Positions 2,986 to 62,380 of a DNA stretch of 64,000 nucleotides are shown here, one piece after another. Source of the DNA: a virus (taxonomy: Duplodnaviria; Heunggongvirae; Uroviricota; Caudoviricetes); the IMG/VR virus record IMGVR_UViG_3300030434_000006, positions 955 through 64,954 of that record; one strand, given 5' to 3'. Made by a program: the position numbers and the translations under genes. The first letter of the stretch is position 1. Every line of letters starts with the position of its first letter. The notes under the pieces were generated by a model. It saw only the letters and a list, made by a program, of their open reading frames with translations, had not been told where the DNA came from and ran no database searches.

Positions 2986-3003
2986 TTTTACAAACTCCAT
3001 ACC
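2986..3003 (+). promoter_or_regulatory. late-operon conserved element TTTTACAAACTCCATACC (copy 1 of 5)
   Basis: 18-mer matching consensus AATTACARACTCCRTACC; ends 32 nt before the ATG at 3035. Confidence 0.5.
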
Positions 3004-7704: not shown

Positions 7705-7722
7705 AATTACAGACTCCGTACC
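7705..7722 (+). promoter_or_regulatory. late-operon conserved element AATTACAGACTCCGTACC (copy 2)
   Basis: ends 38 nt before the GTG at 7760. Confidence 0.5.
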
Positions 7723-13497: not shown

Positions 13498-13515
13498 AAT
13501 TACAAACTCCATACA
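13498..13515 (+). promoter_or_regulatory. late-operon conserved element AATTACAAACTCCATACA (copy 3)
   Basis: ends 36 nt before the endolysin ATG at 13552. Confidence 0.5.
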
Positions 13516-16367: not shown

Positions 16368-16385
16368 GGTAGGGAGGTTGTAATT
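16368..16385 (-). promoter_or_regulatory. late-operon conserved element AATTACAACCTCCCTACC (copy 5, minus strand)
   Basis: 16/18 match to the consensus; 73 nt upstream of the ATG at 16295 on the minus strand. Confidence 0.4.
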
Positions 16386-16426: not shown

Positions 16427-16442
16427 CCAGTGGATAATTTCA
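16427..16442 (-). promoter_or_regulatory. TGAAATTATCCACTGG element (family copy d)
   Basis: 15/16 identical to the copies at 36835 and 57099; contains a DnaA-box-like TTATCCACT. Confidence 0.4.
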
Positions 16443-16504
16443 TATTAGAAATATTGAATTTATCCGCGCCGGGGATATAGTGTGCGCGCCACTGTAAAAC
16501 AGTG

Positions 16505-16722
16505 GTCGGGATTGGAACCCCGAACGAATGTACGAGGAGGCACTTAGTGCCTCCGGCGCTACCACGTCTGGAGTTTGCCAGATGTTTCAATGGTGGCGTT
16601 GGCGGGGCTACCTTCGGGTAGGCCGGTCTCCTCGTACGCCGGTAGTTCCAACCCTGTCAACGTCACCACCCGGAGATTGGAACCTCCCGTAGTGACGCTT
16701 CCTTTTGTACGAGGAGCACTCC
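16505..16722 (+). promoter_or_regulatory. repeat-rich leader with a W/R-rich small upstream ORF
   Basis: three copies (two direct, one inverted) of GATTGGAACC..GTACGAGGAG; the SD of the gene at 16723 lies inside the third copy and is complementary to the inverted copy CTCCTCGTAC; uORF at 16582..16692 begins MFQWWRWRGYLRV. Confidence 0.4.
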
Positions 16723-26439: not shown

Positions 26440-26504
26440 TTATTTTAATTGACGATAAATTAGAAAACCCTTAGATTGCGTTAAGCAGCTAAGGCAGCGA
26501 CAAA

Positions 26505-26593: not shown

Positions 26594-26758
26594 ATGAATA
26601 ATTTTGCGCAGCGTGATTTTGTTAATGCCACCTCAAACAAGGCTCTTTCAGCAAAAGCCACGCCTTTTTCTAATGTGATCGGCAGGTTCCTTGTACTTTG
26701 CTTCAGTACGCTCGGTATCGTTTACAGCCTTGCGTTCATGTGGATGGCCCACCAGTAA
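26594..26758 (+). CDS. small hydrophobic peptide (54 aa), not in the ORF track
   Basis: MNNFAQRDFVNATSNKALSAKATPFSNVIGRFLVLCFSTLGIVYSLAFMWMAHQ; single C-terminal TM helix; weak SD. Confidence 0.3.
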   Translation: MNNFAQRDFVNATSNKALSAKATPFSNVIGRFLVLCFSTLGIVYSLAFMWMAHQ

Positions 26759-26894
26759 AAAGATAACTGCCTGTAATAACTATCTTTCAAAGATGTAGAT
26801 TACAGGCTTGTTTTTTCCCGTCTCAGCGTTAAAAATACCCCCCAACGCAGATCCACTTTTTAGACTAATTAATCATCGGTTGGCAATTTCGGAT

Positions 26895-27485
26895 ATGCGC
26901 TTCAGTGAAGAGTGGTTGCACTCCTATAAAAAAAATCAAAAAAACCGCACCAAAGCAGCTGTTAAATCTGCTGGTGGAGCGTCGGTAAAATCCGGCAAAA
27001 CCTCTGCCTGGTTAGCGGCAGCTTTAGAAATATCGGTTCACGCAAAAGCGCTGGCCGCTCTCGTCAAAAATCCCGATCTGCGCAAAGGCAAACAAGAGCA
27101 TTACGATCAGGTTCGAATCTTTGACCATTTTCACCGTCACAACAGGGTTATTTATGACCATCTGTATGCCGTACCAAACGGAGGATTTCGCTTAAAGGCG
27201 ACCGCCGCAGCGATCGAGGCTGAGGGCGCAAAGCGGGGCGTTCCGGATATGTCCCTGGAAATACCGGCAGGCATCTATCACGGAATGCGGGTAGAGCAGA
27301 AACACGGTAAGAATATGCCTTCTGAGTTTCAGCTGACGTGGATGCGTCGCCTGAAAGAGCAGGGGTACTACGTTCTTTTATCATTTTCACCTGAAGAGAC
27401 GATCAGCGTGATGGAACAATACGCAGTTCTCAAAGCAGGCGAAGCAATGCCAGCGCATGAGAATGACGGTTTCTGGAGCGAATAA
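26895..27485 (+). CDS. VRR-NUC domain nuclease
   Basis: GVPDMSLEIPAGIYHGMRVEQKHGKN gives the PD-(D/E)xK signature and ...SEFQLTWMRRLKEQGYYVLL matches the VRR-NUC consensus; internal ATG chosen (ORF begins 26808). Confidence 0.55.
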   Translation: MRFSEEWLHSYKKNQKNRTKAAVKSAGGASVKSGKTSAWLAAALEISVHAKALAALVKNPDLRKGKQEHYDQVRIFDHFHRHNRVIYDHLYAVPNGGFRLKATAAAIEAEGAKRGVPDMSLEIPAGIYHGMRVEQKHGKNMPSEFQLTWMRRLKEQGYYVLLSFSPEETISVMEQYAVLKAGEAMPAHENDGFWSE

Positions 27486-28004
27486 GTGCTTTTTGACGCG
27501 CAGTTTTTTACCGGATGCCCCACCTTTGAGCAGTATGCGCGCCGTAAAAAGACGCGCGACGGCTTGGGCCGTGGGCTTTCGGTTTTTGCCGACATGGCTA
27601 TGGACGTCGGCATTTTCAAAGTACCGAAGCAGGAGCTTATGTCGCGCAGCGGCATGAGTAACCGCCAGCTGAACTATTTCGGCGGCGTGAAGGGGATCAG
27701 TTACATCTTGAGAAAATCATTAACAGAAGGACGCGGACGCATGACTACGGCACAGATCGAAGGTTTGAGCAAAATTGGAATCGGTGCCATTACGTGCAGC
27801 TATGACCGCGCCTTGCTGAAGATGAAAGAGGATCCGGAATTGCTGATGCGCCGGGAAGCGTGGGAGGCGGGTTACTTTGTGTCGCTTGAGCAGGAGCATG
27901 AAGGCTGTGACGTGCTGATACTGACCCGACCGGACGGCGGCGTTGAGATACACGAACTGAGCATTAACGATATGCGCGTCAGCGACTGGGTAGTTATCAG
28001 CTGA
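27486..28004 (+). CDS. hypothetical protein
   Basis: 172 aa, GTG start; stop overlaps the next start (ATGA). Confidence 0.3.
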   Translation: MLFDAQFFTGCPTFEQYARRKKTRDGLGRGLSVFADMAMDVGIFKVPKQELMSRSGMSNRQLNYFGGVKGISYILRKSLTEGRGRMTTAQIEGLSKIGIGAITCSYDRALLKMKEDPELLMRREAWEAGYFVSLEQEHEGCDVLILTRPDGGVEIHELSINDMRVSDWVVIS

Positions 28005-28300
28005 TGGGCCAGGATAAGCCATACCACTACCATACTGTCTGCTACATGGGCGACAACGGGAAGATGAGATCCGGAATCGTCCAGCTGGCCACACGTCAGA
28101 TTTCCCGCCAGACGCTTGAAAACGTCCGGGCTACGCTTAGCTTTGACGAAAACGCAGTGCTGATCTCGCACAGCTACCTGGGCAGGATGACGCAGACAGA
28201 GTATGAGACCGGCGAGATCAAGGTGCCGTCTGTACTGCTGAACGTGCTGATGATTATCACTGTGGCCGCCATAGCCGTAACGGCGCTGAAACTGCTGTAA
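28004..28300 (+). CDS. tail-anchored small membrane protein
   Basis: 98 aa, C-terminal TM helix VLLNVLMIITVAAIAVTAL. Confidence 0.3.
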   Translation: MGQDKPYHYHTVCYMGDNGKMRSGIVQLATRQISRQTLENVRATLSFDENAVLISHSYLGRMTQTEYETGEIKVPSVLLNVLMIITVAAIAVTALKLL

Positions 28301-28363
28301 CCCTCTGCTGGTGGCGGAGTCCACGATAACGCCACCAGCAATCTCGCCTTAATTGTTTAATCA

Positions 28364-28384
28364 AATCTAAGAAAACTCTTAGAC
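28364..28384 (+). repeat. 21-bp element AATCTAAGAAAACTCTTAGAC (left copy of a perfect inverted repeat; internally palindromic)
   Basis: exact reverse complement found at 29754..29774. Confidence 0.85.
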
Positions 28385-28398
28385 AGTGGTTAATTTCG
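28383..28398 (+). promoter_or_regulatory. ACAGTGGTTAATTTCG element (family copy a)
   Basis: 14/16 identity to the copies at 36835 and 57099; abuts the left IR. Confidence 0.35.
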
Positions 28399-28441
28399 AG
28401 TTATCATCCGCCGCAAATTACACGCGGATCTGATTCTCAAT

Positions 28442-29731
28442 ATGACTACACTCGCTCCACTCCAGCAGCTGCAAAATCTCCCTGTATGCAACGTCGATGA
28501 CGATGTTCTGCACCAGGCGTTTGTCACCGCTTACAGCCAGCTTAATTCCATCCGTAAACGCCTGACGCTTGATGACCTGGAGCTGCGCCTCCTTGATAAC
28601 TGCACGAACGCTCTGGAGCAGATCCAGATCGATATCGGCATGCGGCTCAATCATGAGGCTGATACCTACAACCTGCTATTAGACACACTGGAGCAGGTAC
28701 AGCAGCAGCTGGGTGCGCAGTCCGCACTGGTCAACGAAGTAACGAAAATTCGTCTCGATGCCGAGAGCGCCATTGAAGAGGCCCGTGAGTCGGCTACTCA
28801 GCGAGTGCTGGAGGCGGACAACCGCGTAATCAATGCAGAGAATCAGCTTGAGGGTATCAGGTCTGCCCTGACCACCGCGCAGCTGGCGTTTACCTCTGTC
28901 TCACAGGAATATGAACAGTATCGCCGCAAGAATCCTGAGCGCCTGGCGCGAGACCTGAATGAGCGTGACAAAACCATTTCACAGCAGCGCGCCGATCGCA
29001 AAAAAGACAGCCTTAAGCGGCAGGAGCTACAGAGCAAACTCAATATCGCGGATAAGGTTGTCGGAGAAGAGCGCCGCCAGCGCGCCGCAACAGCCAATGA
29101 CCTGATGAAGACGACCGCTCTTTATAACCACCTGAAGGAACGCGTTGAATTTCATGATGGCCGGGAAGATGTGCAGCAGTTCCTTCTTCAGCTGCCGGAT
29201 GGCTCTGGCGACGTGGGCTGCTACATCTACAACTTCCACTTTGGCCTGAGCGTTTTCCACGGTGTCCGGGATGTGTCTATCGAGACGGCTGATTTCCACT
29301 TCCAGATCCGTACCGCGATGATGCTGGCAATGGACGTGGTGCCGGGGATATGGGGCAACCCGGTCTTCCGCCTGCTGCCTGAGCTTGCGCCGATGTGGGA
29401 CACGGCTATCAATGACGAGCTGCACACACGGATCATGAAGCGTCTGGCGCAGGATTTCCCGCGTCTTCACCAACGCATTCTTGACGGCAAGGCTGCGCCT
29501 GTTTCCGAGCTGGCCATACCGACACGCCTCCTTAACGTTCTGACAAAGGCCGGGTATGAGACGGTTGCAGATGCTGGTGGTGAGTTACCTGACGAGCTGG
29601 CAAAAGTGAGGGGGCTGAGTGAGGCCTCAGTCAATGATATTCGTGCTGCCGTGAACAGCTGGTGCATAAAGTGGGCGCAGGCGAACGGCGACATTGAGAA
29701 CATCAGAAACCCCAAAGTAAAACGCCGCTAA
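28442..29731 (+). CDS. coiled-coil protein with C-terminal RNAP alpha-CTD-like helix-hairpin-helix domain
   Basis: 429 aa; long Q/E/R-rich heptad region; C-terminal IPTRLLNVLTKAGYETVADAGGELPDELAKVRGLSEASVNDIRAAV parallels the RpoA CTD (RSANCLKAEAIHYIGDL...LGKKSLTEIKDVL). Confidence 0.4.
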   Translation: MTTLAPLQQLQNLPVCNVDDDVLHQAFVTAYSQLNSIRKRLTLDDLELRLLDNCTNALEQIQIDIGMRLNHEADTYNLLLDTLEQVQQQLGAQSALVNEVTKIRLDAESAIEEARESATQRVLEADNRVINAENQLEGIRSALTTAQLAFTSVSQEYEQYRRKNPERLARDLNERDKTISQQRADRKKDSLKRQELQSKLNIADKVVGEERRQRAATANDLMKTTALYNHLKERVEFHDGREDVQQFLLQLPDGSGDVGCYIYNFHFGLSVFHGVRDVSIETADFHFQIRTAMMLAMDVVPGIWGNPVFRLLPELAPMWDTAINDELHTRIMKRLAQDFPRLHQRILDGKAAPVSELAIPTRLLNVLTKAGYETVADAGGELPDELAKVRGLSEASVNDIRAAVNSWCIKWAQANGDIENIRNPKVKRR

Positions 29732-29753
29732 CCCCTCCCTTCATGCTTTGAAA

Positions 29754-29774
29754 GTCTAAGAGTTTTCTTAGATT
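29754..29774 (+). repeat. 21-bp element GTCTAAGAGTTTTCTTAGATT (right copy, inverted)
   Basis: perfect reverse complement of 28364..28384. Confidence 0.85.
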
Positions 29775-29956
29775 TTCATTGCTTCATTACTCCGTATTGT
29801 GTACATTCCTCCCCGCTGACAAGAGCTTTACGGCTCCGTGCAAAAATCATAATAGGCATTTGGCGGATTACTCATAACTGTCTGTTTAATCCGCTCTTTT
29901 TTCACAAATCAGAGTCTATTCCAGAGTAGGCTTTGCTGTGTGTAGTAGGGTTTTTG

Positions 29957-29982
29957 GCCCGGTAGTTTCCGGGCTTTTTTTT
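29957..29982 (+). terminator. rho-independent terminator
   Basis: gcccgg-tagttt-ccgggc followed by T8. Confidence 0.7.
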
Positions 29983-30160
29983 CAGGTTCAGCCGTGAGTG
30001 CATCAGGGTGTGCTGACGGCTGAAACGGGGAAAACGCTTTAGCAAGCGAGGCAAACGCACTGCAAATCTGGCGAGGTTTCCTGACCTCATACGTGACGCA
30101 AGCGGACAGGTTGACCAGATACCTAAGTGTCCGCGCCGGGTATGCACCGGCAAGTATTCA

Positions 30161-30224
30161 GCAGGTTTAGCTCAGTCGGTAGAGTGTTCCATTGTCGGCG
30201 GTTCAATTCCGTCAACCTGCACCA
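30161..30224 (+). pseudogene. truncated tRNA-like element (acceptor, D-arm and T-arm present; no anticodon arm)
   Basis: 7-bp acceptor GCAGGTT/AACCTGC, D-arm TAGCTCAGTCGGTAGAGT, T-arm GGCGG-TTCAATT-CCGTC, then ACCA; only 11 nt where the anticodon arm should be. Confidence 0.35.
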
Positions 30225-30396
30225 GTTCGTAACGGGCCGCCCCCGGTTATTAGCTTTTTCCGGGTGTGTTATGAGTAGGGTGAACGGCAAGTAGCCCCTC
30301 CTGTCATGGCAGTGAACGCGGTTGATGGACTAATCCCGCGCATAGAACGCCCCATGAGGCTTAAACACGTTCCCGCCTGATCCTCGTAAGGGATCA

Positions 30397-30478
30397 CCAT
30401 TTGTGAGCGCGCTGGTACATCTGACGTTTTACCTGGCGTTTGGCGAAAGATTACCTCTTACAGCGTGCTCACAAATGG
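30397..30478 (+). other. long imperfect hairpin (18-bp arms CCATTTGTGAGCGCGCTG / CAGCGTGCTCACAAATGG) inside the ORF-free GC-rich region
   Basis: 17/18 complementary arms with a 46-nt loop; further long-range complementarity at 30701/30766. Confidence 0.4.
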
Positions 30479-31174
30479 GGGAATGCGGCTATGCGCACGC
30501 GGGACGGAACAGTTACCTGACGTTTTGCAAATTCCTTTACATGACCCGTCCGTAGATTCCGTATCGGACAGCTGGTGGCACCAGCCCCCCATGCGCTACA
30601 CGTCAACACCAGGCGGTGCCCTGTTTACTGGCTAATTTGGCTGGTGGCGGGGCAGGGTATCGGCAGGCCTCAACACGCCGTGGCTGCTGGGAAAGACCAG
30701 CCCACAACGGCGAGGACATTGAAGGGTGACTTAAACGAGCACCCGGCGCGTGGTTGATCAGTGTTCTCGGCCGTTGTGGTGATCGCTTTAACACACCGTA
30801 GGAGTTGTGGATCCGGAATCCACGGGGCGGAAGCCTTGCCTGTGAATTAACACGGGCGGTCAGCGATGGGCTGCGAAAGCAAAGCGGGTTTAAGTCCCGC
30901 CTCAGTGAACAATCGCGTTAACGGGAAACGGTCACCGCAACTCTATTGAACCCGGCCAGTAACGACAAGCCAGCGATCCCTGCTGGTGGCTGAAAGTGGG
31001 GCATTTGGGACATGTGGGTGCGGAGCCTGGGCGTTTTATTTCCTTTTCGTCTATTTGGTTATCCGGTCAACACAGAATGTGCCAGCCAGCGGGATAACGT
31101 CATTGCAGGTTGAGCGCCTGGGCGATTAGTTCTGACAGCTGGAAGAGACAGCATTCCTCCACAAAGGACGCATT

Positions 31175-31303
31175 ATGTCGTTATCAGAGTTTGCTGCAGA
31201 GCACCCATTTCTCACCGTGATTTACGCGCTGGTGGCCATCTATGGCATTGAGACGTTTGTAAAAGCATGGCGAAGTGGGTTGAAAAGAAAACGTCGTCGG
31301 TAG
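31175..31303 (+). CDS. small membrane peptide (42 aa), not in the ORF track
   Basis: MSLSEFAAEHPFLTVIYALVAIYGIETFVKAWRSGLKRKRRR; SD AAGGA; one TM helix and a basic tail. Confidence 0.3.
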   Translation: MSLSEFAAEHPFLTVIYALVAIYGIETFVKAWRSGLKRKRRR

Positions 31304-31376
31304 TGCCTATAGAAAAGGGCGTTGCGCTGTTTTGCATAGTGTCCCTCTCTGAATGTATTACTTGTGAGGACGCAGT

Positions 31377-31580
31377 TTGGCTGGCTTTTACTTGAAACTT
31401 CTTTGCCTGTTATTTATTGGATTCATGGCTTACGGCCATTTAGCGCCGTGGTTAATATCCAGTAAAGACACCGTTCTTTGCATAGCCGGATTTTTTTTAC
31501 TGGCAACCATGCCTGTTTACGCATGGTTAATTTTGAAATGGGTCAGAAAAGTTATTTCTGTATTACTGAAAAGGCATTAA
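31377..31580 (+). CDS. small two-TM membrane protein
   Basis: 67 aa, immediately upstream of the SPFH gene. Confidence 0.35.
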   Translation: MAGFYLKLLCLLFIGFMAYGHLAPWLISSKDTVLCIAGFFLLATMPVYAWLILKWVRKVISVLLKRH

Positions 31581-34376: not shown

Positions 34377-34728
34377 CAGCCTGATACATGATCTACCGGG
34401 TGAAGATGCTCACCCGGCACCGGCAGCAATCCACACATCGCATAAACTCTAAGTAAAAAATTCGGGTTTACAGTGATAATCCCTCTGAAAACTATATTTA
34501 TAGGCGGTCCAGTTATGCGGTATCGAGCGTACTGAAATGCACTGCCAGTACTGCGATCGTCATTCACTCATACAGCCACCAGCCAGTTTAGGCATGCGCC
34601 GTTCGCCCCCGGAATCGTCTCTAAAACGCACTTATACCTGCTAATAATGGCGATATTTAAACCATTACCACTTGTGCAGATTATACAATCCTTAGAATTG
34701 CTTGTAGTAAATTCAAGCGGAGCAGTAT

Positions 34729-35136
34729 ATGGAGCAAAAGGTGAGCAGTATAGAGGTGGCCGATCTGTTGATTCGCAGAAAGGACTACATGACCGTGGCC
34801 GAAGTCACTAAGCTGGTGGAAACGGAATACCCGCACCTGTTGGTGAACACCGGCATTATCTCGAATATCCTGCGCTCCTTTGTCCGTTCGCCGTTCGCAC
34901 AATGCCGGGTACATCCCGATGCCTATCCCCGGCAGTATCGCCTGGAGGCCATGAACGGCTACATCTTCAAGGTGCGGGGAAGAAAGGATCTTAATTACGA
35001 CTCGCTGTGTGTGGAAAGCGCCACAAAGCGTGTGCTGCAGAAGAAGGAAATGGAACAGCTGTCGGTATGCGCGCTGGCGCGGCAACTGATGGATATGTGC
35101 AGACGGGGAAGGATGGAAAATGCCCCGCTCATGTGA
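34729..35136 (+). CDS. hypothetical protein, possible small DNA-binding regulator
   Basis: 135 aa; same orientation as, and upstream of, the pacA-like gene. Confidence 0.25.
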   Translation: MEQKVSSIEVADLLIRRKDYMTVAEVTKLVETEYPHLLVNTGIISNILRSFVRSPFAQCRVHPDAYPRQYRLEAMNGYIFKVRGRKDLNYDSLCVESATKRVLQKKEMEQLSVCALARQLMDMCRRGRMENAPLM

Positions 35137-35696: not shown

Positions 35697-36824
35697 TTAG
35701 CCCTTCTCGTTGGTCCGGCTACGAATATCGCTTACAGACGCCGCACTACTGATATCAGCCAGAATATCGGCCTCAGAGGCCTGCAGCGCCAGATAGACGC
35801 CACGCGCAATAGCCATTTCAGGGTTATTCGGCACAACAACAACATCATGCCAGCCATCGGTGTGATCGGTCAGTCCTGGCAGCTTGCCAGCGATATAGTT
35901 AGCGCCGCCACCAACAACCAGAACAACGTCAACATCGCGGGTATTACGGTGAAGCGCACGCACGTCCTGCCAGATTTTCTCTGCCAGCTCAGATGCGGCC
36001 TGGTTGATGACTTCACTGATATCAATACGCTTCGATTTAGCGCTTTCCAGACGGGAGCCGATATAGCCCTGACGAATGATGGCATCAACGCTATCAACGC
36101 TGAGATCGGATGCGCCGAACGATTTACCCAGCTTTTCTTCAAACTCTGGCAGCAGCGCATGTACACGCTCGATCATCTTCTGAACGCCGTGCTCATAGCT
36201 GGCCTTTTTCACAGGCATCAGGTCTTTATCAACCAGGGCGATATCACAGGTAAAGCGTCCCAGGTCTACTACCAGCGTCTGCTCAGCGTCAGCCAGCTCC
36301 GGATTATCAGCCTGTGCCGAAACGATGGCAGGAACGGCTTCAGGGAATACTTCGACGTGAATGATGTTAGCCGGTTCGCTACCGTCGCGGTAATTGGTGA
36401 CAGGCGTCTTCAGGCTGGCAACCTTCTCACGGATACGGGCTTCGTTAATCACACCCATAGCGCTGTAGAACTGATTCACCGGCAGCGTTTCACCAATGAT
36501 CACATCACGGCCGCCGAGGCCAGCACGGTGCAGTGCATCGGCAATCAGGACGCGGTGAGCGGGTGAGACCTGATAGTTAGGGTCGCAGGTGTCATACAGG
36601 TCATAGCCTTTCTTCATGACGGTGTAGGCGCGTTCTTTGCCGCTGGCATCCGTTGTCAGCCACGTTGACTGGGATTCAGCCGCGAAAGACTGCTGGTGGC
36701 CTTCCAGTATCAGTGAAGGGGTGACAGAGGTGATCCAGCGCCCTGTGCCATCTTCAGCATAAGTCAGCGCTACGTTGCCAGAGCCTGCGTCTACTGCCAC
36801 TAAAACAGCTTTATTCTTAGTCAT
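35697..36824 (-). CDS. parM: ParM/StbA actin-like plasmid segregation ATPase
   Basis: 375 aa; N-terminal VAVDAGSGNV phosphate-1 motif and actin-fold spacing (DLGRFTCD, VVGGGANY). Confidence 0.65.
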   Translation of the reverse strand: MTKNKAVLVAVDAGSGNVALTYAEDGTGRWITSVTPSLILEGHQQSFAAESQSTWLTTDASGKERAYTVMKKGYDLYDTCDPNYQVSPAHRVLIADALHRAGLGGRDVIIGETLPVNQFYSAMGVINEARIREKVASLKTPVTNYRDGSEPANIIHVEVFPEAVPAIVSAQADNPELADAEQTLVVDLGRFTCDIALVDKDLMPVKKASYEHGVQKMIERVHALLPEFEEKLGKSFGASDLSVDSVDAIIRQGYIGSRLESAKSKRIDISEVINQAASELAEKIWQDVRALHRNTRDVDVVLVVGGGANYIAGKLPGLTDHTDGWHDVVVVPNNPEMAIARGVYLALQASEADILADISSAASVSDIRSRTNEKG

Positions 36825-36834
36825 TTAATTTTAT

Positions 36835-36850
36835 CCAGTGGTTAATTTCA
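36835..36850 (-). promoter_or_regulatory. TGAAATTAACCACTGG element 10 nt upstream of the parM start (family copy b)
   Basis: identical to the 57099..57114 copy. Confidence 0.45.
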
Positions 36851-36931
36851 TACTACGAACGAGGAATCAAAGTACCACATATTCCGGTTTTGTCCATTAG
36901 TAAGGCACCAAAACGGCGCGTTAGCTGCGAT

Positions 36932-36953
36932 AGTGATCATTAATGTGATCACT
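36932..36953. promoter_or_regulatory. palindrome AGTGATCA-TTAATG-TGATCACT with two GATC sites
   Basis: perfect 8-bp arms; lies in the parM / pacA divergent intergenic region. Confidence 0.4.
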
Positions 36954-36956
36954 ACA

Positions 36957-36974
36957 AATTACAGACTCCATACC
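36957..36974 (+). promoter_or_regulatory. late-operon conserved element AATTACAGACTCCATACC (copy 4)
   Basis: ends 35 nt before the pacA-like ATG at 37010. Confidence 0.5.
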
Positions 36975-37009
36975 ATCCCGGTTTATTGGCCTCTTTTGAA
37001 CGATAAACC

Positions 37010-39921: not shown

Positions 39922-41001
39922 TTATTTGCTCTGATTTTTCAGGTTACTTTCCAGCTCACGCAGCAGGCTATACATGTTGCGCATGTTCTTTCCGGCGCGT
40001 GGCTCTTCGCCACCGTAACGCTTGCGGATCTCCGGCATGGTCAGCTGTTCGGTATCGCCTGCAGCCACCTTCTTATCCAGCAGCGCCCAGTCGTATGCTT
40101 CCAGCTTTTCCAGCAGGTCACGGTTTTCGTCAATTTCAGCCTTAAACAGGCGTGCTTCCTGCGCGTCCTTTGCCTTAGCAATCTTCGCCTTCGCCCTGGT
40201 CTCAAACTGAGTGCGGCGCGTGTTCACCGTATACGCCACAGAAGAACGCTGAGCGGCCAGCTGCTTGCTGTAATCCACGTCTTCCATCGTGTACAGCTTG
40301 GCATTCGGCAGTACTGAGCATGCCACGGGAGAAATCGCGTCGTAAGAGGACGTGTACCCGCCGTTACTGTTAACGTTCAGCCTGATATCACGCTCTTTGT
40401 TCAGGTTTTCACCGTAGATAAGCATGCCGTGCGCGCCATAACGGAACGATTCGCCCTCATCTTTTTTGTCGTCGGTGTAGCGCGCAGTCACCTGAATGTC
40501 AGAGTAGTTGCTGGTGCGGGCGCGGTACATTGCGCCTGGCGCTGCGGCTTCAAACGCCTTCATTTCGTCTTCCAGCGACATGATGGCACCGGCAGCGAAC
40601 GGAACCTTACGCAGCTTGCCGATCTGCTTTTCGTAGCGCTTCAGGATATCTTCACGGGTGTGGTTCGCGGTCGCCGTAGCGCGGAAGCGGTTGATAGTGA
40701 CTTGCTTCGGCTCAACGATCAGGGTCGGCACCGGCAGGTAAAGGTTAGTCGTGATCGCGATAGAACGCGCCTGGCGTTTCTCTTCTGCCAGGTCGGCAAA
40801 GCTCTGCCAGTCGGCCAGCAGGTGTTCTGCGCGCTGAAAGGTCTTCTTATCAGTGATAAAGCCGATCGGGCGGCATTCCTCACCCATAGCGTTTTTATCA
40901 ATGAAAATCTGGTTGTCCGTGATGAGAGTCAGCCACTCTTTTTGTACCTGTAGAAAATGTTTATAGCGCTTCTCAAATTCTACATCGCTGAAGTTAGGCA
41001 T
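39922..41001 (-). CDS. hypothetical protein divergent from the lox/cre-like locus
   Basis: 359 aa; occupies the position that c1 holds relative to loxP-cre in P1, but shows no recognisable similarity. Confidence 0.3.
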   Translation of the reverse strand: MPNFSDVEFEKRYKHFLQVQKEWLTLITDNQIFIDKNAMGEECRPIGFITDKKTFQRAEHLLADWQSFADLAEEKRQARSIAITTNLYLPVPTLIVEPKQVTINRFRATATANHTREDILKRYEKQIGKLRKVPFAAGAIMSLEDEMKAFEAAAPGAMYRARTSNYSDIQVTARYTDDKKDEGESFRYGAHGMLIYGENLNKERDIRLNVNSNGGYTSSYDAISPVACSVLPNAKLYTMEDVDYSKQLAAQRSSVAYTVNTRRTQFETRAKAKIAKAKDAQEARLFKAEIDENRDLLEKLEAYDWALLDKKVAAGDTEQLTMPEIRKRYGGEEPRAGKNMRNMYSLLRELESNLKNQSK

Positions 41002-41386
41002 AATTGTATTCCAAAAAAATTAATGAGCGGTGCAAGTCTCTCTGGACTTAATGGAGGCGAATATAGACAGAATCAGTAGCCATGTAAAATTAACTCTCCT
41101 TAGAATTGCAATAATAAGAATAGTCTGCATTGTGCATCTGTCAGATATTTCCGCTGTACACGCTTATTAACAAACTGTGTGTTCAGGGTTGTGTAACAGG
41201 TATCAGGTGCAAAGCGCCTGGGCAAATGGTCCCGACTGATAATAGTTACCTTTAGCAATCAATTTGCATGCCAAATGATCATATATGAAGGTATGGTGCC
41301 GATCACGAACAATAACGTAACGAATTTGCAAATTTTTCGATTTGGCTACTCTTTCAGGCAGTCGCTTTACAAAAAGTGTCAAAATA

Positions 41387-41422
41387 GGAAACTTTAAATA
41401 ATAAGTCTTATATAAAGTTTCC
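41387..41422. other. lox-like recombination site candidate (14-8-14)
   Basis: GGAAACTTTAAATA-ATAAGTCT-TATATAAAGTTTCC; arms 13/14 complementary, 8-bp asymmetric spacer; 190 bp upstream of the Cre-like gene. Confidence 0.5.
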
Positions 41423-41611: not shown

Positions 41612-42643
41612 ATGAAACATCTGGCTCAAATAAAGACCGGCGCACTCCCGGCAGAATTAACGCAATTAACGCCGGAAGACATTGCAAATAACCTGCGCAG
41701 ATTCATCGCAGATAAGGCCGCTTATTCCGAGAATACTTTCCGCGACCTGTTATCCGTTATCCGGCGCTGGGCCTTCTGGTGCAACGAGCGCGATGTGGGC
41801 TACCTGCCGATCGACCCCGAGCTGGCGCGGGAGTACTTTCTGCAGATGGCAGAAAGCGGCCTGGCATCGAGCACGATCGACAAACACTATGCCATGATGA
41901 ACATGCTGTGCCGGGAAAGCGGCCTGCCGGATCTCCGGGGAAGCGTGGACCTGAAACGTTCCATGAAACGCATCCGCCGCGAGGCCGTGCTGCAGGGTGA
42001 ACGCACCGGCCAGGCTGTGCCGTTCCGCCTGCCGGACCTGCAGCTGCTGTCGCACCTCATGGGCCGCTCCGACCGGCTGACCGATCAGCGAAACCTGGCA
42101 TTTCTGTTTGTGGCCTACAACACCCTGTGCCGTATGTCCGAACTCAGCCGCATCCGGGTGCGCGACCTGGATATCAGCGACAGTGGCCATGTGGTGATCA
42201 ACCTGTCACACACTAAAACGATGGTGACGGCCGCGGGCGTGGTCAAGCACCTCAGCCGCGCCGCTGCCGGTCATCTGATGCACTGGCTGGAGCTGTCCGG
42301 GCTGATTCATCATCCGGACGCGATGGTTTTCGGTCCGGTCCGCCACAACAACACGGCTGGCGTGTCGGAAAAGCCAATGTCTGCACCGGCGACCGAGAAG
42401 ATTTTCAAAGACGCATGGGATCTGCTGGGGAAAGAGCCGGTGCAGGATAACAAAGGCCGCTACGCCAAATGGTCCGGCCACAGCGCCCGCGTGGGTGCCG
42501 CGATGGATATGGCCGAACGTGACGCGACGATTACTCAGATCATGCAGGAAGGCACCTGGCAGGATCCGAAAACCGTTATGCGCTACCTTCGCCGCTCTGA
42601 AAGTCAAAAAGGAAAAATGTCTGGCATACTGGACGGAGAATAG
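41612..42643 (+). CDS. Cre-like tyrosine site-specific recombinase
   Basis: 343 aa (same length as P1 Cre); NLAFLFVAYNTLCRMSELSRIRVRDLD matches Cre NLAFLGIAYNTLLRIAEIARIRVKDIS; WSGHSARVGAAMDMA matches WSGHSARVGAARDMA; catalytic Tyr in VMRYLR. Confidence 0.85.
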   Translation: MKHLAQIKTGALPAELTQLTPEDIANNLRRFIADKAAYSENTFRDLLSVIRRWAFWCNERDVGYLPIDPELAREYFLQMAESGLASSTIDKHYAMMNMLCRESGLPDLRGSVDLKRSMKRIRREAVLQGERTGQAVPFRLPDLQLLSHLMGRSDRLTDQRNLAFLFVAYNTLCRMSELSRIRVRDLDISDSGHVVINLSHTKTMVTAAGVVKHLSRAAAGHLMHWLELSGLIHHPDAMVFGPVRHNNTAGVSEKPMSAPATEKIFKDAWDLLGKEPVQDNKGRYAKWSGHSARVGAAMDMAERDATITQIMQEGTWQDPKTVMRYLRRSESQKGKMSGILDGE

Positions 42644-42646
42644 AGA

Positions 42647-42668
42647 TTTAGATTTATTGAAATCTAAA
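42647..42668. promoter_or_regulatory. perfect 9-4-9 palindrome TTTAGATTT-ATTG-AAATCTAAA
   Basis: begins 4 nt after the cre-like stop; shares the AATCTAA half-site with the IRs at 28364/29754 and the palindrome at 62359. Confidence 0.45.
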
Positions 42669-42736
42669 GAAATAATAATTGTAACGTTAACATTTATCCC
42701 CCACAATTCGGGCCATCCCGCATCCTGCGAATACCG

Positions 42737-43634: not shown

Positions 43635-44126
43635 TTGAAGCGCCTTTTACCAAAACTTAAAGTTTTTCGCGCCCGATATCCGGAAACGGCCTCAGCTGTG
43701 CTGATGCTGCTGAAGGATGAGCGTATCGCCACGCGCCGCCGCTTTACCCGCGCCCTGCCGGACACATCAACGCACGTCATCCGGGGAACGCTGCTGGACC
43801 TCCTGAAAAACGGACTGATCACGCGATCCATTGATAACGAGTACAGCCTGGCGGTGACGCCCGCTTATGCCGCCAGACTGACGCCCCTGAAAATGGGGAA
43901 GACCGAAGAGTACATTCTGATGCTGCTCGATCAGAACCGGTACATCACCGCCAGACAGGTACGCCAGGAGTTTGACGTAAGCCATTCCCTCTTTCTGCAG
44001 TCCGTGAAGAAACTGATTGCTCGCGGGCTGGTGGAGTACACAGACGTCCCTCTCTATGAGAACTCTGTCCGCAAACGCCGCCATTACACCTTTAAATCAC
44101 CGGAGTTAAGCCATGCCTCAAATTAA
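43635..44126 (+). CDS. putative winged-helix DNA-binding protein
   Basis: 163 aa; two MarR-like wHTH-looking segments (RGTLLDLLKNGLI and QSVKKLIARGLV). Confidence 0.3.
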   Translation: MKRLLPKLKVFRARYPETASAVLMLLKDERIATRRRFTRALPDTSTHVIRGTLLDLLKNGLITRSIDNEYSLAVTPAYAARLTPLKMGKTEEYILMLLDQNRYITARQVRQEFDVSHSLFLQSVKKLIARGLVEYTDVPLYENSVRKRRHYTFKSPELSHASN

Positions 44127-45501: not shown

Positions 45502-45640
45502 AAGGCGTTAGTACCTGCCAGAATTAGCAGGTAAAGATGCTTCAGGCTGGTGATGAAATGGCTTGTATAAATCTAAGGGTTTGGTAATTTACAAACCGGA
45601 TGTTTCTTGATTGATGTTGCCATTAGCCTTTGCTCTCCAA

Positions 45641-45754: not shown

Positions 45755-46132
45755 ATGGCCTTTCAGAGCCCCGCCCAGAACTACACTGAAACGCGCCTGA
45801 ACCTGGGCGATCTGGTATCTCTTTCCCCCTTCTCAACCTATCTGATGCGCAGCGAATCCGACTGCCCCGGCGCCGGGATTGTCAAAGGGTCCGTGCTGGC
45901 CATCGATCGCGCCCTGACGCCGGCGCACGGCCAGCTTATAGTGGCGGAGTTCGAAGGCGACCTGACACTGAGGCGGCTGTTGCTCAATCCGGTTCCCGCC
46001 CTCCAGGCACTGGACGCGGACGAGACAGTAACACTGCTCGATGTGAGCCAGGAGCTTCCTGTGTGGGGTGTGGTGGCTTATGCCTTAACCGATGTGGCCG
46101 GGATCGGCTTTAATGGGCCTGCAGGAGGTTAA
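45755..46132 (+). CDS. UmuD-prime-like protein (pre-processed form, P1 HumD-like)
   Basis: 125 aa; S24 peptidase C-terminal fold without the N-terminal cleavable arm; SD GGAG; directly upstream of umuC. Confidence 0.55.
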   Translation: MAFQSPAQNYTETRLNLGDLVSLSPFSTYLMRSESDCPGAGIVKGSVLAIDRALTPAHGQLIVAEFEGDLTLRRLLLNPVPALQALDADETVTLLDVSQELPVWGVVAYALTDVAGIGFNGPAGG

Positions 46133-46134
46133 GC

Positions 46135-47397
46135 ATGTTTGCGCTGGCAGATGCCAATAACTTCTATGCCTCCTGTGAAACCGTGTTCAGGCCCGATCTG
46201 CGCGGTAAACCGATTGTCGTCGTTTCGAACAACGACGGCTGCGTGATCGCACGTTCGGCGGAGGCAAAGCGCCTGGGTATCAAAATGGCGGCGCCGCTGT
46301 TTCTGAATGAGCGTTTTTTCAGGCAGAACGGCGTGCATGTGTTCAGTTCCAATTATGAGCTGTACGGCGATATGTCAGCCCGGATGATGGCCATACTGGG
46401 CGAGATGGCTGCTGGACAGGAGGTTTACTCTATCGACGAGTCATTTCTGGACGTCACCGGCATCAGCAATGTGATCCCGCTTGAGACGTTCGGACACCAG
46501 ATGCGTGAGCGTATCCGAAAGGAAACAGGGCTGATAATTGGCGTAGGGTTCGGACCAACGAAGACGCTGGCCAAGCTGGCTAATCATGCTGCGAAAAAAT
46601 GGACGCAGACAAAGGGCGTGGTCGATTTATCCAGCCGGACCCGGCAGCGAAAGCTGCTTCACCTGACCGACGTCGGCGATATCTGGGGTATCGGCCCGCG
46701 CATTACCAAGCGCATGCACCAGCTGGGCATCACCACTGCTCTGCAACTGGCGGACAGCAATATCAGCATGATCCGGAAAAACTTTGACGTCATCGTTGAG
46801 CGTACCACCCGCGAGCTCAATGGCGAGTCCTGCATCGCACTGGAAGACGCGCCGCCGCCAAAGCAGAACATCCTTAACTCGCGCTCATTTGGTGAGAAGA
46901 TCACGGACCTGGAGGACATGAAGCAGGCCGTCACACTCTACGCCACCCGTGCCGGAGAAAAGCTGAGAGAGCAGAACTCGCGTTGCCGACATATCAGCGT
47001 GTCGATCTCTACCGCTAGGCACGCAAACGAGCCTCAGTATTCGAATACCGCCTCATGCGTCTGCGACTACCCCACCAGCGACACTCGGGACATTATTGAG
47101 TCTGCGCTGCGCGGGCTGAGCACTATCTGGCGCGACGGCTACCGGTACGCAAAAGCAGGCGTCATGCTGGGGGATTTTTACCAGTCTGGCGTGGCGCAGT
47201 TTGACATGTTCAGTGAGCAGCAGCCGCGTGCAAATGCAGATGCTCTGATGGCCGCGCTGGACGCTATCAATCGCTCCGGGAGGGGAAAGGTATTCTTCGC
47301 GGGACAGGGAGAGCAAGACAGCGCATGGCAGATGAAGCGAGAAATGCTGTCGCCTCGATATACCACGCGGCTGAAAGATATACCACGCATAAAATAA
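46135..47397 (+). CDS. umuC: Y-family DNA polymerase subunit UmuC-like
   Basis: MFALADANNFYASCETVFRPDLRGKPIVVVSNNDGCVIARSAEAKRLGIKM is near-identical to the UmuC N-terminus. Confidence 0.85.
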   Translation: MFALADANNFYASCETVFRPDLRGKPIVVVSNNDGCVIARSAEAKRLGIKMAAPLFLNERFFRQNGVHVFSSNYELYGDMSARMMAILGEMAAGQEVYSIDESFLDVTGISNVIPLETFGHQMRERIRKETGLIIGVGFGPTKTLAKLANHAAKKWTQTKGVVDLSSRTRQRKLLHLTDVGDIWGIGPRITKRMHQLGITTALQLADSNISMIRKNFDVIVERTTRELNGESCIALEDAPPPKQNILNSRSFGEKITDLEDMKQAVTLYATRAGEKLREQNSRCRHISVSISTARHANEPQYSNTASCVCDYPTSDTRDIIESALRGLSTIWRDGYRYAKAGVMLGDFYQSGVAQFDMFSEQQPRANADALMAALDAINRSGRGKVFFAGQGEQDSAWQMKREMLSPRYTTRLKDIPRIK

Positions 47398-62358: not shown

Positions 62359-62380
62359 AATCTAAAAAATATTTTAGATT
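62359..62380. promoter_or_regulatory. perfect 9-4-9 palindrome AATCTAAAA-AATA-TTTTAGATT
   Basis: 11 nt upstream of the ATG at 62391; same half-site family as 42647 and the IRs at 28364/29754. Confidence 0.45.

What the first reader, a model, noticed from the sequence alone, without database searches (positions are those of the whole stretch)
28364..29774. Gene for a coiled-coil plus alpha-CTD-like protein sits exactly between perfect 21-bp inverted repeats that are themselves palindromic
AATCTAAGAAAACTCTTAGAC (28364) and its exact reverse complement (29754) bracket the 429-aa gene, its 58-bp leader and 22 bp of trailer. Each copy contains a 7-4-7 palindrome (TCTAAGA-N4-TCTTAGA). Related 9-4-9 palindromes with the same AATCTAA half-site sit just after cre (42647) and over the translation start of the Ref-like gene (62359), and a half-site is at 45579. 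The possibilities are paired operators for a dimeric regulator (perhaps the flanked protein itself, allowing looping), centromere-like sites, or the ends of an invertible or excisable cassette.
Basis: seen in the sequence. Interest (0 to 1): 0.65.

Follow-up and report, generated by a model that had tools for sequence, protein, structure and literature searches.

The report
Paired repressor operators flanking phage pmgS gene
The two perfect inverted repeats around this gene are most likely ordinary double ("bivalent") binding sites for the immunity repressor of a P1-like plasmid-prophage, each sitting on the promoter of a separate transcription unit, not the ends of a mobile or invertible cassette.

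Summary
A 22-nt perfect inverted repeat (28363-28384 / 29754-29775) brackets a 429-aa gene, and each copy is a TCTAAGA-N4-TCTTAGA palindrome. The window is a P1/D6-like phage-plasmid of Pantoea, and the gene is the PmgS homologue. The palindromes are the strongest members of a dispersed motif, A(A/T)TCTAA: 13 copies in 64 kb, 12-13 of them in the 10.7% that is non-coding. This motif lies on or next to predicted sigma-70 promoters of the genes whose P1 counterparts are C1-controlled: c1, lpa, the c4/immI promoter, ref, pmgS, and the head of an RNA/tRNA/tci unit that resembles the P1 ban operon. The core (TCTAA) and the geometry (TCTAAG-N6-CTTAGA) match P1's bivalent C1 operators Op72ab and Op99ab. 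A C1 homologue is encoded at 39922-41001. Late (Lpa) promoters use a different motif. In nine relatives the gene never changes orientation. The cores are invariant in the close Pantoea clade but the central bases drift, and more distant relatives keep only one good half-site. The exact 22-nt identity is therefore lineage-specific. Verdict: C1-type bivalent operators on two adjacent early transcription units, a new member of a known kind and of low interest. C1 binding is inferred, not shown.

The parts
28363..28384 (.). Upstream bivalent operator AAATCTAAGAAAACTCTTAGAC. The cores TCTAAG (28366-28371) and CTTAGA (28378-28383) are separated by 6 bp.
   Evidence: The cores are invariant in 6 Pantoea-clade relatives while the centre varies.
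28380..28407 (+). Predicted sigma-70 promoter of pmgS: -35 TAGACA (28380-28385), 16-nt spacer, -10 TATCAT (28402-28407). The -35 lies inside the right half of the operator.
   Evidence: 10 of 12 consensus matches. The -35 is invariant, and the -10 is TATCAT or TAGAAT in all 9 relatives.
28442..29731 (+). PmgS-like gene, 429 aa: long coiled coil, small beta unit, and a C-terminal RNAP alpha-CTD-like helix-hairpin-helix domain.
   Evidence: BLASTP vs P1 PmgS E 6e-21 over the full length and vs D6 orf9 E 2e-39. Pfam PF03118. PDB phmmer hits to RNAP alpha CTD, E 0.017. Model with pLDDT 67.
29754..29775 (.). Downstream bivalent operator GTCTAAGAGTTTTCTTAGATTT. The extended palindrome is 29749-29778. 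As RNA it would be a 13-bp AU-rich hairpin at the 3' end of pmgS.
   Evidence: Hairpin -18.9 kcal/mol, z -6.4. Cores conserved and centre variable in relatives.
29778..29807 (+). Putative promoter of the next unit: TTGCTT (29778-29783), 18 nt, TACATT (29802-29807), immediately downstream of the operator.
   Evidence: Read from the sequence, below the scan threshold. TTG(C/A)TT and TTGTGTACATT are invariant in all relatives, including those that lack the palindrome.
29812..31170 (+). Non-coding stretch headed by the downstream operator. It holds two hairpin-plus-T-run terminators (29861-29903, 29956-29983) and a truncated tRNA-like element (30161-30221). It is the positional counterpart of the P1 Oban / dicF-like / tRNA / tci leader.
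   Evidence: P1 layout. D6 and MXU90 carry tRNAs and tciA/tciB at this position.
62359..62380 (.). Third bivalent operator AATCTAAAAAATATTTTAGATT. It covers the end of the -10 and the start site of the predicted ref promoter (TTTACA 62333, 17 nt, AACAAT 62356), 10 nt before the ref ATG.
   Evidence: Ref confirmed by PF16786, E 2e-34. Conserved in pEuc3.
41084..41106 (-). Monovalent operator ATTCTAAGGAGAGTTAATTTTAC, overlapping the -35 of the predicted c1 promoter (minus strand: TTTACA 41088-41083, 17 nt, TATATT 41065-41060).
   Evidence: PSNIH1 keeps the same core at the same spacing from the -35.
39922..41001 (-). C1-family immunity repressor homologue (359 aa), the proposed binder.
   Evidence: BLASTP vs P1 C1 E 8e-14. 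tblastn hits to 'phage repressor protein C1' of P1-like plasmids. It occupies the same position as P1 c1, between pacB and cre.
34676..34698 (-). Monovalent operator GCAATTCTAAGG..., about 30 nt upstream of lpa (34729-35136).
   Evidence: Lpa confirmed by PF25716, E 1e-29. Conserved in pEuc3 and PSNIH1. P1 has Olpa at the same place.
16440..16460 (-). TCTAAT-core site abutting the -35 (TTGAAT, 16454-16459) of the predicted promoter that drives the C4 antisense RNA (16586-16673).
26455..26477 (-). Monovalent operator AATCTAAGGGTTTTCTAATTTAT, upstream of the early pmg-like operon (26594-28300).
   Evidence: Conserved in pEuc3.
45570..45592 (+).
   Evidence: Conserved in pEuc3.
42646..42683 (.). 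Two back-to-back (everted) half-sites just after cre. Only the right one (42661, +) is conserved in pEuc3.
28306..28340 (+). Chi-containing hairpin (11-nt arms) that ends the upstream operon and separates it from the pmgS operator and promoter.
   Evidence: I22. P1 has a similar Chi hairpin after pmgS.

Best explanation
The two repeats are bivalent operators of the phage-plasmid's C1-family immunity repressor. Each consists of two inverted TCTAAG cores 6 bp apart. This is the arrangement of P1's Op72ab and Op99ab, where two asymmetric 17-bp operators overlap by 6 bp.

The upstream operator overlaps the -35 of the pmgS promoter. The downstream operator abuts the -35 of the promoter of the next unit, an untranslated RNA/tRNA-like leader that resembles the head of the P1 ban operon. 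In the prophage state, repressor bound at both sites, at a third bivalent site on the ref promoter, and at about 10 monovalent sites (c1, lpa, immI and others) would keep these early genes off.

The gene looks 'bracketed' only because two repressor-controlled units are adjacent, as OpmgR...pmgS...OpmgT are in P1. The AU-rich downstream palindrome may also act as a weak terminator for pmgS.

What is shown: the sequence, its enrichment, promoter overlap, conservation, and homology of the repressor and of the gene order. What is inferred: that C1 is the binder, and that binding represses.
For: (1) The motif family is regulatory. A[AT]TCTAA occurs 13 times in 64 kb, 12 of them in the 10.7% called non-coding; the 13th is at the edge of a doubtful ORF. 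Markov simulation of the non-coding DNA gives 2.5 +/- 1.5. AATCTAA is the most enriched 7-mer in non-coding DNA, 8 of 8.

(2) The sites sit on predicted promoters. At pmgS the site overlaps the -35. At ref it covers the -10 end and start site. At c1 it overlaps the -35. At the c4/immI promoter it abuts the -35. Another lies just upstream of lpa.

(3) These are the genes whose P1 homologues carry annotated C1 operators: OpmgRa/b, Oref, Oc1ab, Olpa, Obanab. P1 has 22 dispersed asymmetric operators, ATTGCTCTAATAAATTT (PMC8546580).

(4) The core TCTAA is shared with P1. The geometry is identical: P1 Obanab is ATTGC-TCTAAT-AAATTT-ATTAGT-GTAAT, and here it is TCTAAG-N6-CTTAGA.

(5) A C1 homologue is encoded at the syntenic position.

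(6) Footprinting across relatives fits sequence-specific protein recognition, not RNA pairing. In six Pantoea-clade relatives both cores are invariant while the central bases vary (AAAC, AACC, GACT, AACT, GTTT). More distant relatives (PSNIH1, the 'Acinetobacter' plasmid, Enterobacter BRE11) keep a good half-site at both positions and keep the promoter.

(7) PSNIH1, whose C1 is 46% identical, keeps TCTAAG at the same spacing from the c1 -35, and keeps GCAATTCTAA before lpa.

(8) Late promoters use a distinct motif, TTACAnnCTCCnTACC, with 5 sites at 1 mismatch or fewer. The palindromes are therefore not Lpa boxes.
Against: No binding or expression data exist, and the binder is inferred from analogy and position only. 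The full P1 operator consensus is not matched (best 12 of 17), so the homology of the sites rests on a 5-nt core plus geometry. The monovalent sites show a weak second half (T.A at the position of TTAGA). That could equally indicate a dimeric protein rather than a P1-like monomer. Some sites lie where P1 has no annotated operator: the prt/darB intergenic region, the region after cre, and the regions near the umuDC copies. The promoter downstream of the second palindrome was read by eye and fell below the scan threshold. The D6 genome paper, which might describe operators of this group, was not available.
Confidence: 0.7

Rival explanations
1. The palindromes are operators, but for a different dimeric DNA-binding protein of the element or the host. 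One candidate is the MarR-like winged-helix protein at 43635-44126. C1 would then use some other, unrecognised site.
For: Perfect 9-4-9 dyads are typical of dimeric HTH or wHTH regulators. A MarR-like gene exists, and its operon is preceded by half-sites at 42646-42683. The P1 operator consensus is not found in the window. The monovalent sites have a weak symmetric second half.
Against: The same core sits on the c1 and lpa promoters at conserved spacing in relatives, which is the hallmark of the immunity repressor. The geometry equals that of P1 bivalent C1 operators. No palindrome lies directly in front of the MarR-like gene. No other over-represented non-coding motif emerged that could serve as the C1 operator.
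Confidence: 0.15
2. The flanked PmgS-like protein binds the palindromes through its alpha-CTD-like domain, dimerised by the coiled coil, and autoregulates or loops its own gene.
For: The protein has a long coiled coil plus a helix-hairpin-helix alpha-CTD-like domain. The sites flank its gene.
Against: The same motif occurs at more than 10 unrelated promoters, including c1, lpa and ref. RNAP alpha-CTD binds A/T-rich minor groove, not dyads (established knowledge). In the alignment to B. subtilis alpha-CTD, the counterpart of the second-hairpin 'GKK' (G296-K298 in E. coli numbering) is 'SEA', so a key DNA contact is missing. In P1 the pmgR-pmgS unit carries annotated C1 operators.
Confidence: 0.04
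3. The repeats act only at the RNA or DNA-structure level, as hairpins that terminate or stabilise transcripts, and the sequence identity reflects recent duplication.
For: The downstream copy folds into a 13-bp hairpin (-18.9 kcal/mol, z -6.4) right after the stop codon, followed by a U-rich stretch. The loop varies while the stem is conserved.
Against: The upstream copy lies upstream of the predicted pmgS start site and after a separate Chi hairpin. The arms are conserved in sequence with no compensatory changes. The same half-site occurs singly at many promoters. The stem has too few G-C pairs to pass the terminator scan.
Confidence: 0.05
4. The repeats are the ends of an invertible or excisable cassette, or centromere-like partition sites.
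For: The arrangement is a perfect inverted repeat with an asymmetric 4-nt centre. In pEuc3 and P. conspicua the two sites are direct repeats instead. Cre and a ParM system are present in the element.
Against: pmgS has the same orientation relative to both flanks in all nine relatives, and in D6 and P1. In MXU90 and MMD61212 the centres of the two sites differ from each other, which is incompatible with spacer-homology-dependent recombination. Inversion at the centres would move the promoter together with the gene and change nothing. A separate 13-8-13 lox-like site lies upstream of cre at 41388-41421. The ParM upstream region has no TCTAA sites.
Confidence: 0.03

Closest known systems
Bivalent C1 operators of phage P1 (Obanab = Op72ab; Oc1ab = Op99ab)
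   Same: Two inverted TCTAA-type cores separated by 6 bp (P1: TCTAAT-AAATTT-ATTAGT). They overlap sigma-70 promoter hexamers. They are part of a dispersed set of operators for a C1-family repressor. One heads a unit that begins with untranslated RNA and tRNA sequence, like the P1 ban operon.
   Different: The flanks differ. P1 has ATTGC before the core, whereas here it is (A/C)AA(A/T), so the 17-bp P1 consensus is matched at 12 of 17 positions at best. The repressor is only 22% identical to P1 C1 and 76 aa longer. The monovalent sites here appear longer (about 21 bp, ending in TAATTT). Binding is untested.
P1 OpmgRa/OpmgRb and OpmgT (Op86a/b, Op88) around pmgR-pmgS-pap
   Same: The homologous gene (pmgS) lies between C1-controlled promoters. 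In P1 the two Op86 operators are inverted relative to each other and flank PpmgR, and Op88 starts the next unit.
   Different: In P1 the operators are monovalent, lie upstream of pmgR, and are 32 bp apart. Here a single bivalent site lies between the pmgR-like gene and pmgS, and there is no pap gene before the next operator.
P1 Lpa-dependent late promoters (9-bp -22 box, 4 bp, -10 hexamer)
   Same: A short symmetric element close to a promoter hexamer in a P1-like genome.
   Different: The P1 box is AAGTGACTT. In this element the late-promoter motif is TTACAnnCTCCnTACC, found upstream of the tail, lysis, pro and pacA genes. The palindromes precede early-type genes and overlap the -35 or the start site.
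Site-specific inversion or excision sites (cix/hix 12-2-12; lox 13-8-13)
   Same: Short dyad-symmetric sites with an asymmetric centre, in inverted orientation around a segment.
   Different: There is no variation in orientation among relatives. The centres are not conserved between the two sites. No recombinase is adjacent, and a separate lox-like site is present near cre.

Membership tests
C1-type (P1 immunity repressor) operators, bivalent form | The element encodes a C1-family repressor | tested here: met
   ORF 39922-41001(-) vs P1 C1: E 8e-14, 22% identity over 268 aa. tblastn hits to 'phage repressor protein C1' in P1-like plasmids. Syntenic position between pacB and cre.
C1-type (P1 immunity repressor) operators, bivalent form | The sequence matches the P1 17-bp consensus ATTGCTCTAATAAATTT | tested here: not met
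   The best match in the window is 12 of 17 (41105), and none of the palindromes reaches 12 of 17. Only the TCTAA core and the A/T-rich 3' part are shared. These are therefore not P1-immunity operators. At most they are a heteroimmune variant.
C1-type (P1 immunity repressor) operators, bivalent form | Two inverted cores separated by 6 bp (17-mers overlapping by 6, 28 bp in all) | tested here: met
   P1 Obanab is ATTGC TCTAAT AAATTT ATTAGT GTAAT, and Oc1ab spans 28 bp. The window has TCTAAG-AAAACT-CTTAGA, TCTAAG-AGTTTT-CTTAGA and TCTAAA-AAATAT-TTTAGA.
C1-type (P1 immunity repressor) operators, bivalent form | Many dispersed copies overlapping sigma-70 promoters of immunity and early genes (c1, lpa, immI, ref, pmgR/S, ban operon) | tested here: met
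   14 aligned half-sites at 11 loci. Promoter overlaps are shown. The P1 counterparts are annotated.
C1-type (P1 immunity repressor) operators, bivalent form | Physical binding by the repressor, and repression | not testable with these tools
   Needs EMSA or footprinting, ChIP, or reporter assays.
Lpa-dependent late promoter | A conserved box 4 bp upstream of a -10 hexamer, upstream of late (morphogenesis, lysis, packaging) genes | tested here: not met
   No P1-type box is present. A different motif, TTACAnnCTCCnTACC, marks the late genes. The palindromes overlap the -35 or the start site of sigma-70-type promoters of early-type genes.
Invertible or excisable cassette bounded by recombination sites | Both orientations (or presence and absence) among relatives, identical asymmetric core in both sites, and a cognate recombinase | tested here: not met
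   A single orientation in 9 relatives plus D6 and P1. The centres differ between the two sites in MXU90 and MMD61212. No recombinase gene is adjacent.
Plasmid centromere (parC/parS) | A repeat array next to the partition genes | tested here: not met
   The ParM gene at 35697-36824 and its upstream region 36825-37009 contain no TCTAA sites.
Intrinsic terminator | A G+C-rich stem followed by a U tract | tested here: inconclusive
   The downstream palindrome folds stably (-18.9 kcal/mol) and is followed by AUUGCUUCAUU. However, it has too few G-C pairs for the scan, which did not call it. The upstream copy has no U tract.
RNA polymerase alpha C-terminal domain fold (PF03118), for the flanked protein | Profile match above the curated threshold | tested here: met
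   29.0 bits against a cut-off of 23.8, aa 351-404. Weak PDB sequence hits to B. subtilis alpha-CTD, E 0.017. Foldseek with the whole model found nothing significant.

The most novel reading that the evidence does not exclude
The two bivalent operators, 1389 bp apart, might be bridged by repressor, as in C1-mediated looping at the P1 c1 locus. That would enclose pmgS in a repression loop. PmgS would then be an early, repressor-controlled protein that mimics the RNA polymerase alpha-CTD in order to redirect host transcription, not a 'morphogenetic' or scaffolding protein. Neither idea is excluded by the data, and neither is supported beyond the domain match and the site layout.
Probability: 0.08. 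Interest if true: 0.55.

Novelty: new member of a known kind. Interest (0 to 1): 0.22.

Why it matters
The result gives a working operator motif, A(A/T)TCTAA(A/G), with a bivalent form TCTAAG-N6-CTTAGA. It also gives a separate late-promoter motif for an undescribed group of Pantoea/Enterobacter P1/D6-like phage-plasmids. With these, their immunity regulon and early/late transcription units can be mapped by sequence alone. It shows that the position and geometry of C1-type operators outlast their sequence across P1, D6 and this group. It does not reveal a new kind of element.

Tried and rejected
(1) Megablast of the locus against the phage collection found nothing. The plasmid collection gave the relatives.

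(2) A search for the P1 C1 consensus and for ATTGCnnTAAT found no family of sites.

(3) A search for P1-type Lpa boxes found none, so the Lpa-box hypothesis for the palindromes was dropped once the true late motif appeared.

(4) I briefly considered that the monovalent sites (box + 5-6 nt + TAATTT) were promoters of the Lpa type. I rejected this because their orientation does not follow the adjacent genes. For example, 26477(-), 34698(-), 57131(+) and 59375(+) point away from or against the neighbouring genes.

(5) The Rfam E-value search of 29700-31400 gave only the tRNA-like hit and sub-threshold noise, with no DicF.

(6) The AlphaFold model of the protein was mediocre (pLDDT 67, pTM 0.34), and Foldseek against PDB gave no hit with E below 0.5.

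(7) The papers on the P1 genome (PMC523184) and the D6 genome (PMC5800970) are not held.

(8) ARAGORN found no tRNA in the window, although Rfam scores one.

(9) Some loci fetched in parallel (for example L002) never appeared in /data, so they were read through get_sequence instead.
Full report
**1. Observation.**
The sequence AATCTAAGAAAACTCTTAGAC occurs at 28364-28384 on the + strand and at 29754-29774 on the - strand, and nowhere else even with three mismatches. No such match occurred in 100 shuffles. The repeat finder extends the perfect match to 22 nt, 28363-28384 / 29754-29775. Each copy is a TCTAAGA-N4-TCTTAGA palindrome. The downstream copy extends to 13-nt arms with one mismatch (29749-29778). 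Between the copies lies one ORF, 28442-29731, of 429 aa. Its C-terminus (aa 351-404) matches Pfam RNA_pol_A_CTD above the curated cut-off and weakly matches solved alpha-CTD chains. The AlphaFold model shows long helices over aa 45-239. Exact TCTAA-N8-TTAGA occurs three times in the window (28366, 29755, 62361), against 0.03 expected.

**2. Context.**
The region is 86-88% identical to four 90-95-kb non-mobilizable Pantoea plasmids. It is about 77% identical to plasmids from Pantoea sp. PSNIH1 and from a strain labelled Acinetobacter venetianus. Their annotation shows a P1/D6-like phage-plasmid with portal, DarB-like, Lpa, ParM, terminase and Cre genes.

The 429-aa protein is homologous over its whole length to P1 PmgS (E 6e-21) and to D6 orf9, 'similar to P1 pmgS' (E 2e-39). 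The preceding 98-aa ORF matches the D6 pmgR-like orf10.

Other landmarks in the window:
- Lpa at 34729-35136 (PF25716).
- A C1-family repressor at 39922-41001(-), E 8e-14 vs P1 C1, with hits to 'phage repressor protein C1'.
- Ref at 62391-63047 and a Rep3 initiator with iterons.
- A C4 antisense RNA at 16586-16673.

**3. The palindromes belong to a dispersed regulatory motif.**
The half-site is not confined to the three palindromes. AATCTAA is the most enriched 7-mer in non-coding DNA, 8 of 8. A[AT]TCTAA occurs 13 times in 64 kb. Twelve lie in the 10.7% called non-coding, and the thirteenth is at the edge of a doubtful ORF. Markov simulation gives 2.5 +/- 1.5 and a maximum of 8 in 1000 runs.

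Aligned, the 14 half-sites give AA(A/T)TCTAA(A/G)(G/A)nTTTnnT(T/A)A. Most are monovalent, of the form A(A/T)TCTAA(G/A)G-N5-6-TAATTT. Three are perfect dyads. The complete relative pEuc3 has the same three dyads and about ten further monovalent sites in intergenic DNA.

**4. The sites sit on promoters of early and immunity genes.**
- *pmgS:* the right half of the upstream palindrome contains the -35 of a 10-of-12 consensus promoter, TAGACA-16-TATCAT. The -35 is invariant, and the -10 is TATCAT or TAGAAT in all nine relatives.
- *ref:* the dyad covers the end of the -10 and the start site of TTTACA-17-AACAAT.
- *c1:* a monovalent site overlaps the -35 of a 10-of-12 promoter on the minus strand.
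- *c4/immI:* a TCTAAT core abuts the -35.
- *lpa:* GCAATTCTAAGG lies about 30 nt upstream of the ATG.
- *Downstream palindrome:* it is immediately followed by TTGCTT-18-TACATT. This putative promoter was read by eye, but TTG(C/A)TT and TTGTGTACATT are invariant in every relative, including those that lack the palindrome.

**5. Comparison with P1.**
The annotated P1 genome shows C1 operators at the homologous places:
- OpmgRa/b flank PpmgR and 'control expression of pmgR and pmgS'.
- OpmgT starts the next unit.
- Oref, Olpa and Oc1a-e are at the ref, lpa and c1 loci.
- The divalent Obanab heads the ban operon, which starts with a dicF-like RNA region and tRNAs followed by tciABC.

P1 has 22 dispersed operators with the asymmetric consensus ATTGCTCTAATAAATTT (PMC8546580). 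The core TCTAA is shared.

P1's bivalent operators are two 17-mers overlapping by 6 bp. Obanab reads ATTGC-TCTAAT-AAATTT-ATTAGT-GTAAT and Oc1ab spans 28 bp. This gives cores separated by 6 bp, exactly as in TCTAAG-AAAACT-CTTAGA here.

The downstream palindrome heads about 1.4 kb of non-coding DNA with two terminator hairpins and a truncated tRNA-like element. In MXU90 and in D6 this stretch is followed by tciA/tciB, and D6 also has tRNAs there. The downstream palindrome is therefore the positional analogue of Oban.

D6 itself has TTAGA/TCTAA-containing sites immediately before and after its pmgS gene, and before lpa.

**6. Not late promoters.**
P1 Lpa boxes are AAGTGACTT-like and lie 4 bp before the -10. 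None occurs here. Instead, TTACAnnCTCCnTACC precedes the tail, lysis, pro and pacA genes, with 5 sites at 1 mismatch or fewer (the 2-mismatch scan found 9 sites against 0.8 expected). This is a separate motif, which leaves the TCTAA family as the repressor's.

**7. Relatives.**
In pEuc3, MXU90, MMD61212, GD03673 and P. conspicua both palindromes are present, with invariant TCTAAG and CTTAGA cores, while the central bases vary:
- Upstream centre: AAAC or AACC.
- Downstream centre: AAAC, GACT, AACT or GTTT.

In pEuc3 and P. conspicua the two sites share the centre AAAC, so they are direct repeats. In the window and in GD03673 the downstream centre is GTTT, which makes them inverted. The 22-nt perfect inverted repeat is therefore specific to this lineage and is not a conserved feature.

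In PSNIH1, the 'Acinetobacter' plasmid and Enterobacter BRE11 each position keeps one good half-site (ATTCTAAA..., AAATCTAAAATAAATTA), but the dyad is degenerate or absent. The PSNIH1 C1 is 46% identical, and that plasmid keeps the core at the same spacing from the c1 -35 and before lpa.

The orientation of pmgS relative to both flanks is the same in every relative, in D6 and in P1.

**8. Mechanism.**
Most likely (0.7), the element's C1 homologue binds two inverted, overlapping operators at each palindrome and represses the pmgS promoter and the promoter of the following RNA/tRNA-like unit in the prophage. The third dyad represses ref, and the monovalent sites control c1, lpa, immI and others.

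The gene is 'bracketed' because two C1-controlled units are adjacent. The downstream dyad may double as a weak terminator for pmgS (hairpin -18.9 kcal/mol). Cooperative bridging of the two sites is possible but untested.

What is shown: the sequence, statistics, promoter overlap, conservation and homologies. What is inferred: the identity of the binder and its repressive effect.

**9. Rivals.**
- *Another dimeric regulator (0.15).* This cannot be excluded without binding data. It would leave the c1 and lpa sites and the P1-like geometry unexplained.
- *Autoregulation by PmgS (0.04).* This is unlikely because the motif is spread over the whole regulon. In addition, the alpha-CTD-like domain lacks the counterpart of the G296-K298 hairpin (combined with established knowledge of alpha-CTD DNA contacts).
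- *A purely structural hairpin role (0.05).* This does not fit the upstream copy or the single half-sites.
- *Cassette or centromere readings (0.03).* These fail the tests in section 7. A separate lox-like 13-8-13 site lies upstream of cre.

**10. Novelty and score.**
Bivalent C1 operators are classical P1 biology. What is new is only their form in an undescribed Pantoea/Enterobacter branch of P1/D6-like phage-plasmids, together with that branch's late-promoter motif. This is a new member of a known kind, with interest 0.22.

Noticed in passing
window 2988-3003, 7707-7722, 13500-13515, 36959-36974 (+); 16368-16383 (-): A conserved motif, TTACAnnCTCCnTACC (fuller form AAATTACAGACTCCnTACCnTC), lies upstream of the tail, lysis, pro and pacA genes. 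It is probably the Lpa-dependent late promoter of this phage group and differs from the P1 AAGTGACTT box.
   Followed up: partly
window 29763-29766 vs pEuc3 (L001 22376-22379) and L015: The 4-nt centre of the downstream palindrome is AAAC in pEuc3 and P. conspicua, but its exact reverse complement GTTT in the window and in GD03673. This looks like a hairpin-loop inversion rather than four independent substitutions. It is what turns the two sites from direct into inverted repeats.
   Followed up: partly
window 30161-30221 (+): A tRNA-like element of 61 nt has acceptor, D and T arms and an encoded CCA, but almost no anticodon arm. Rfam tRNA scores it at 47 bits, while ARAGORN does not call it. 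D6 and P1 have real tRNA genes at the corresponding place.
   Followed up: partly
window 29812-29985 (+): A conserved non-coding stretch after the downstream operator has two hairpin-plus-T-run terminators (29861-29903 and 29956-29983). The second half folds at -30 kcal/mol, z -4.1. It may be a small RNA at the position of P1's dicF-like region. There is no Rfam match above threshold.
   Followed up: partly
whole window; e.g. 28306-28340: Chi (GCTGGTGG) occurs 77 times (51 on the + strand, 26 on the - strand), against about 2.8 expected. Several copies form the arms of terminator-like hairpins, for example the one just upstream of the pmgS operator. P1 has the same feature after its pmgS gene.
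   Followed up: partly
window 16586-16673 (+) and 16440-16481: A C4 antisense RNA (Rfam, 81.8 bits) is preceded by a predicted promoter, TTGAAT-16-TATAGT, with a TCTAAT-core site abutting the -35. This is the immI counterpart of P1.
   Followed up: partly
window 41388-41421: A lox-like 13-8-13 palindrome (AAACTTTAAATA-N-TATATAAAGTTT) lies about 190 nt upstream of the cre homologue (41612-42643).
   Followed up: no
window 60823-61130 and 62061-62160: Iterons (ACCATGAAACCAGCAA/ACAA, about 21-nt spacing) lie on both sides of the Rep3-type initiator gene (61136-62017, -). This resembles the incC/incA arrangement of the P1 plasmid replicon.
   Followed up: no
window 42646-42669: The '9-4-9 palindrome' after cre is everted (TTTAGATTT-ATTG-AAATCTAAA), so its half-sites point away from each other. 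Only the right half is conserved in pEuc3.
   Followed up: yes
window 45755-47397 and 57595-59290: There are two umuDC-like operons. The first is humD/umuC-like on the + strand and the second is on the - strand. Each has an A(A/T)TCTAA site nearby (45570, 57131, 59375), at places where P1 has LexA control rather than C1 control.
   Followed up: no
L006 (CP060164.1): A plasmid nearly identical to Pantoea pPSP-26e in this region is deposited under Acinetobacter venetianus. Its replicon typing and gene content are those of an Enterobacterales P1/D6-like phage-plasmid, so the host label may be wrong.
   Followed up: no
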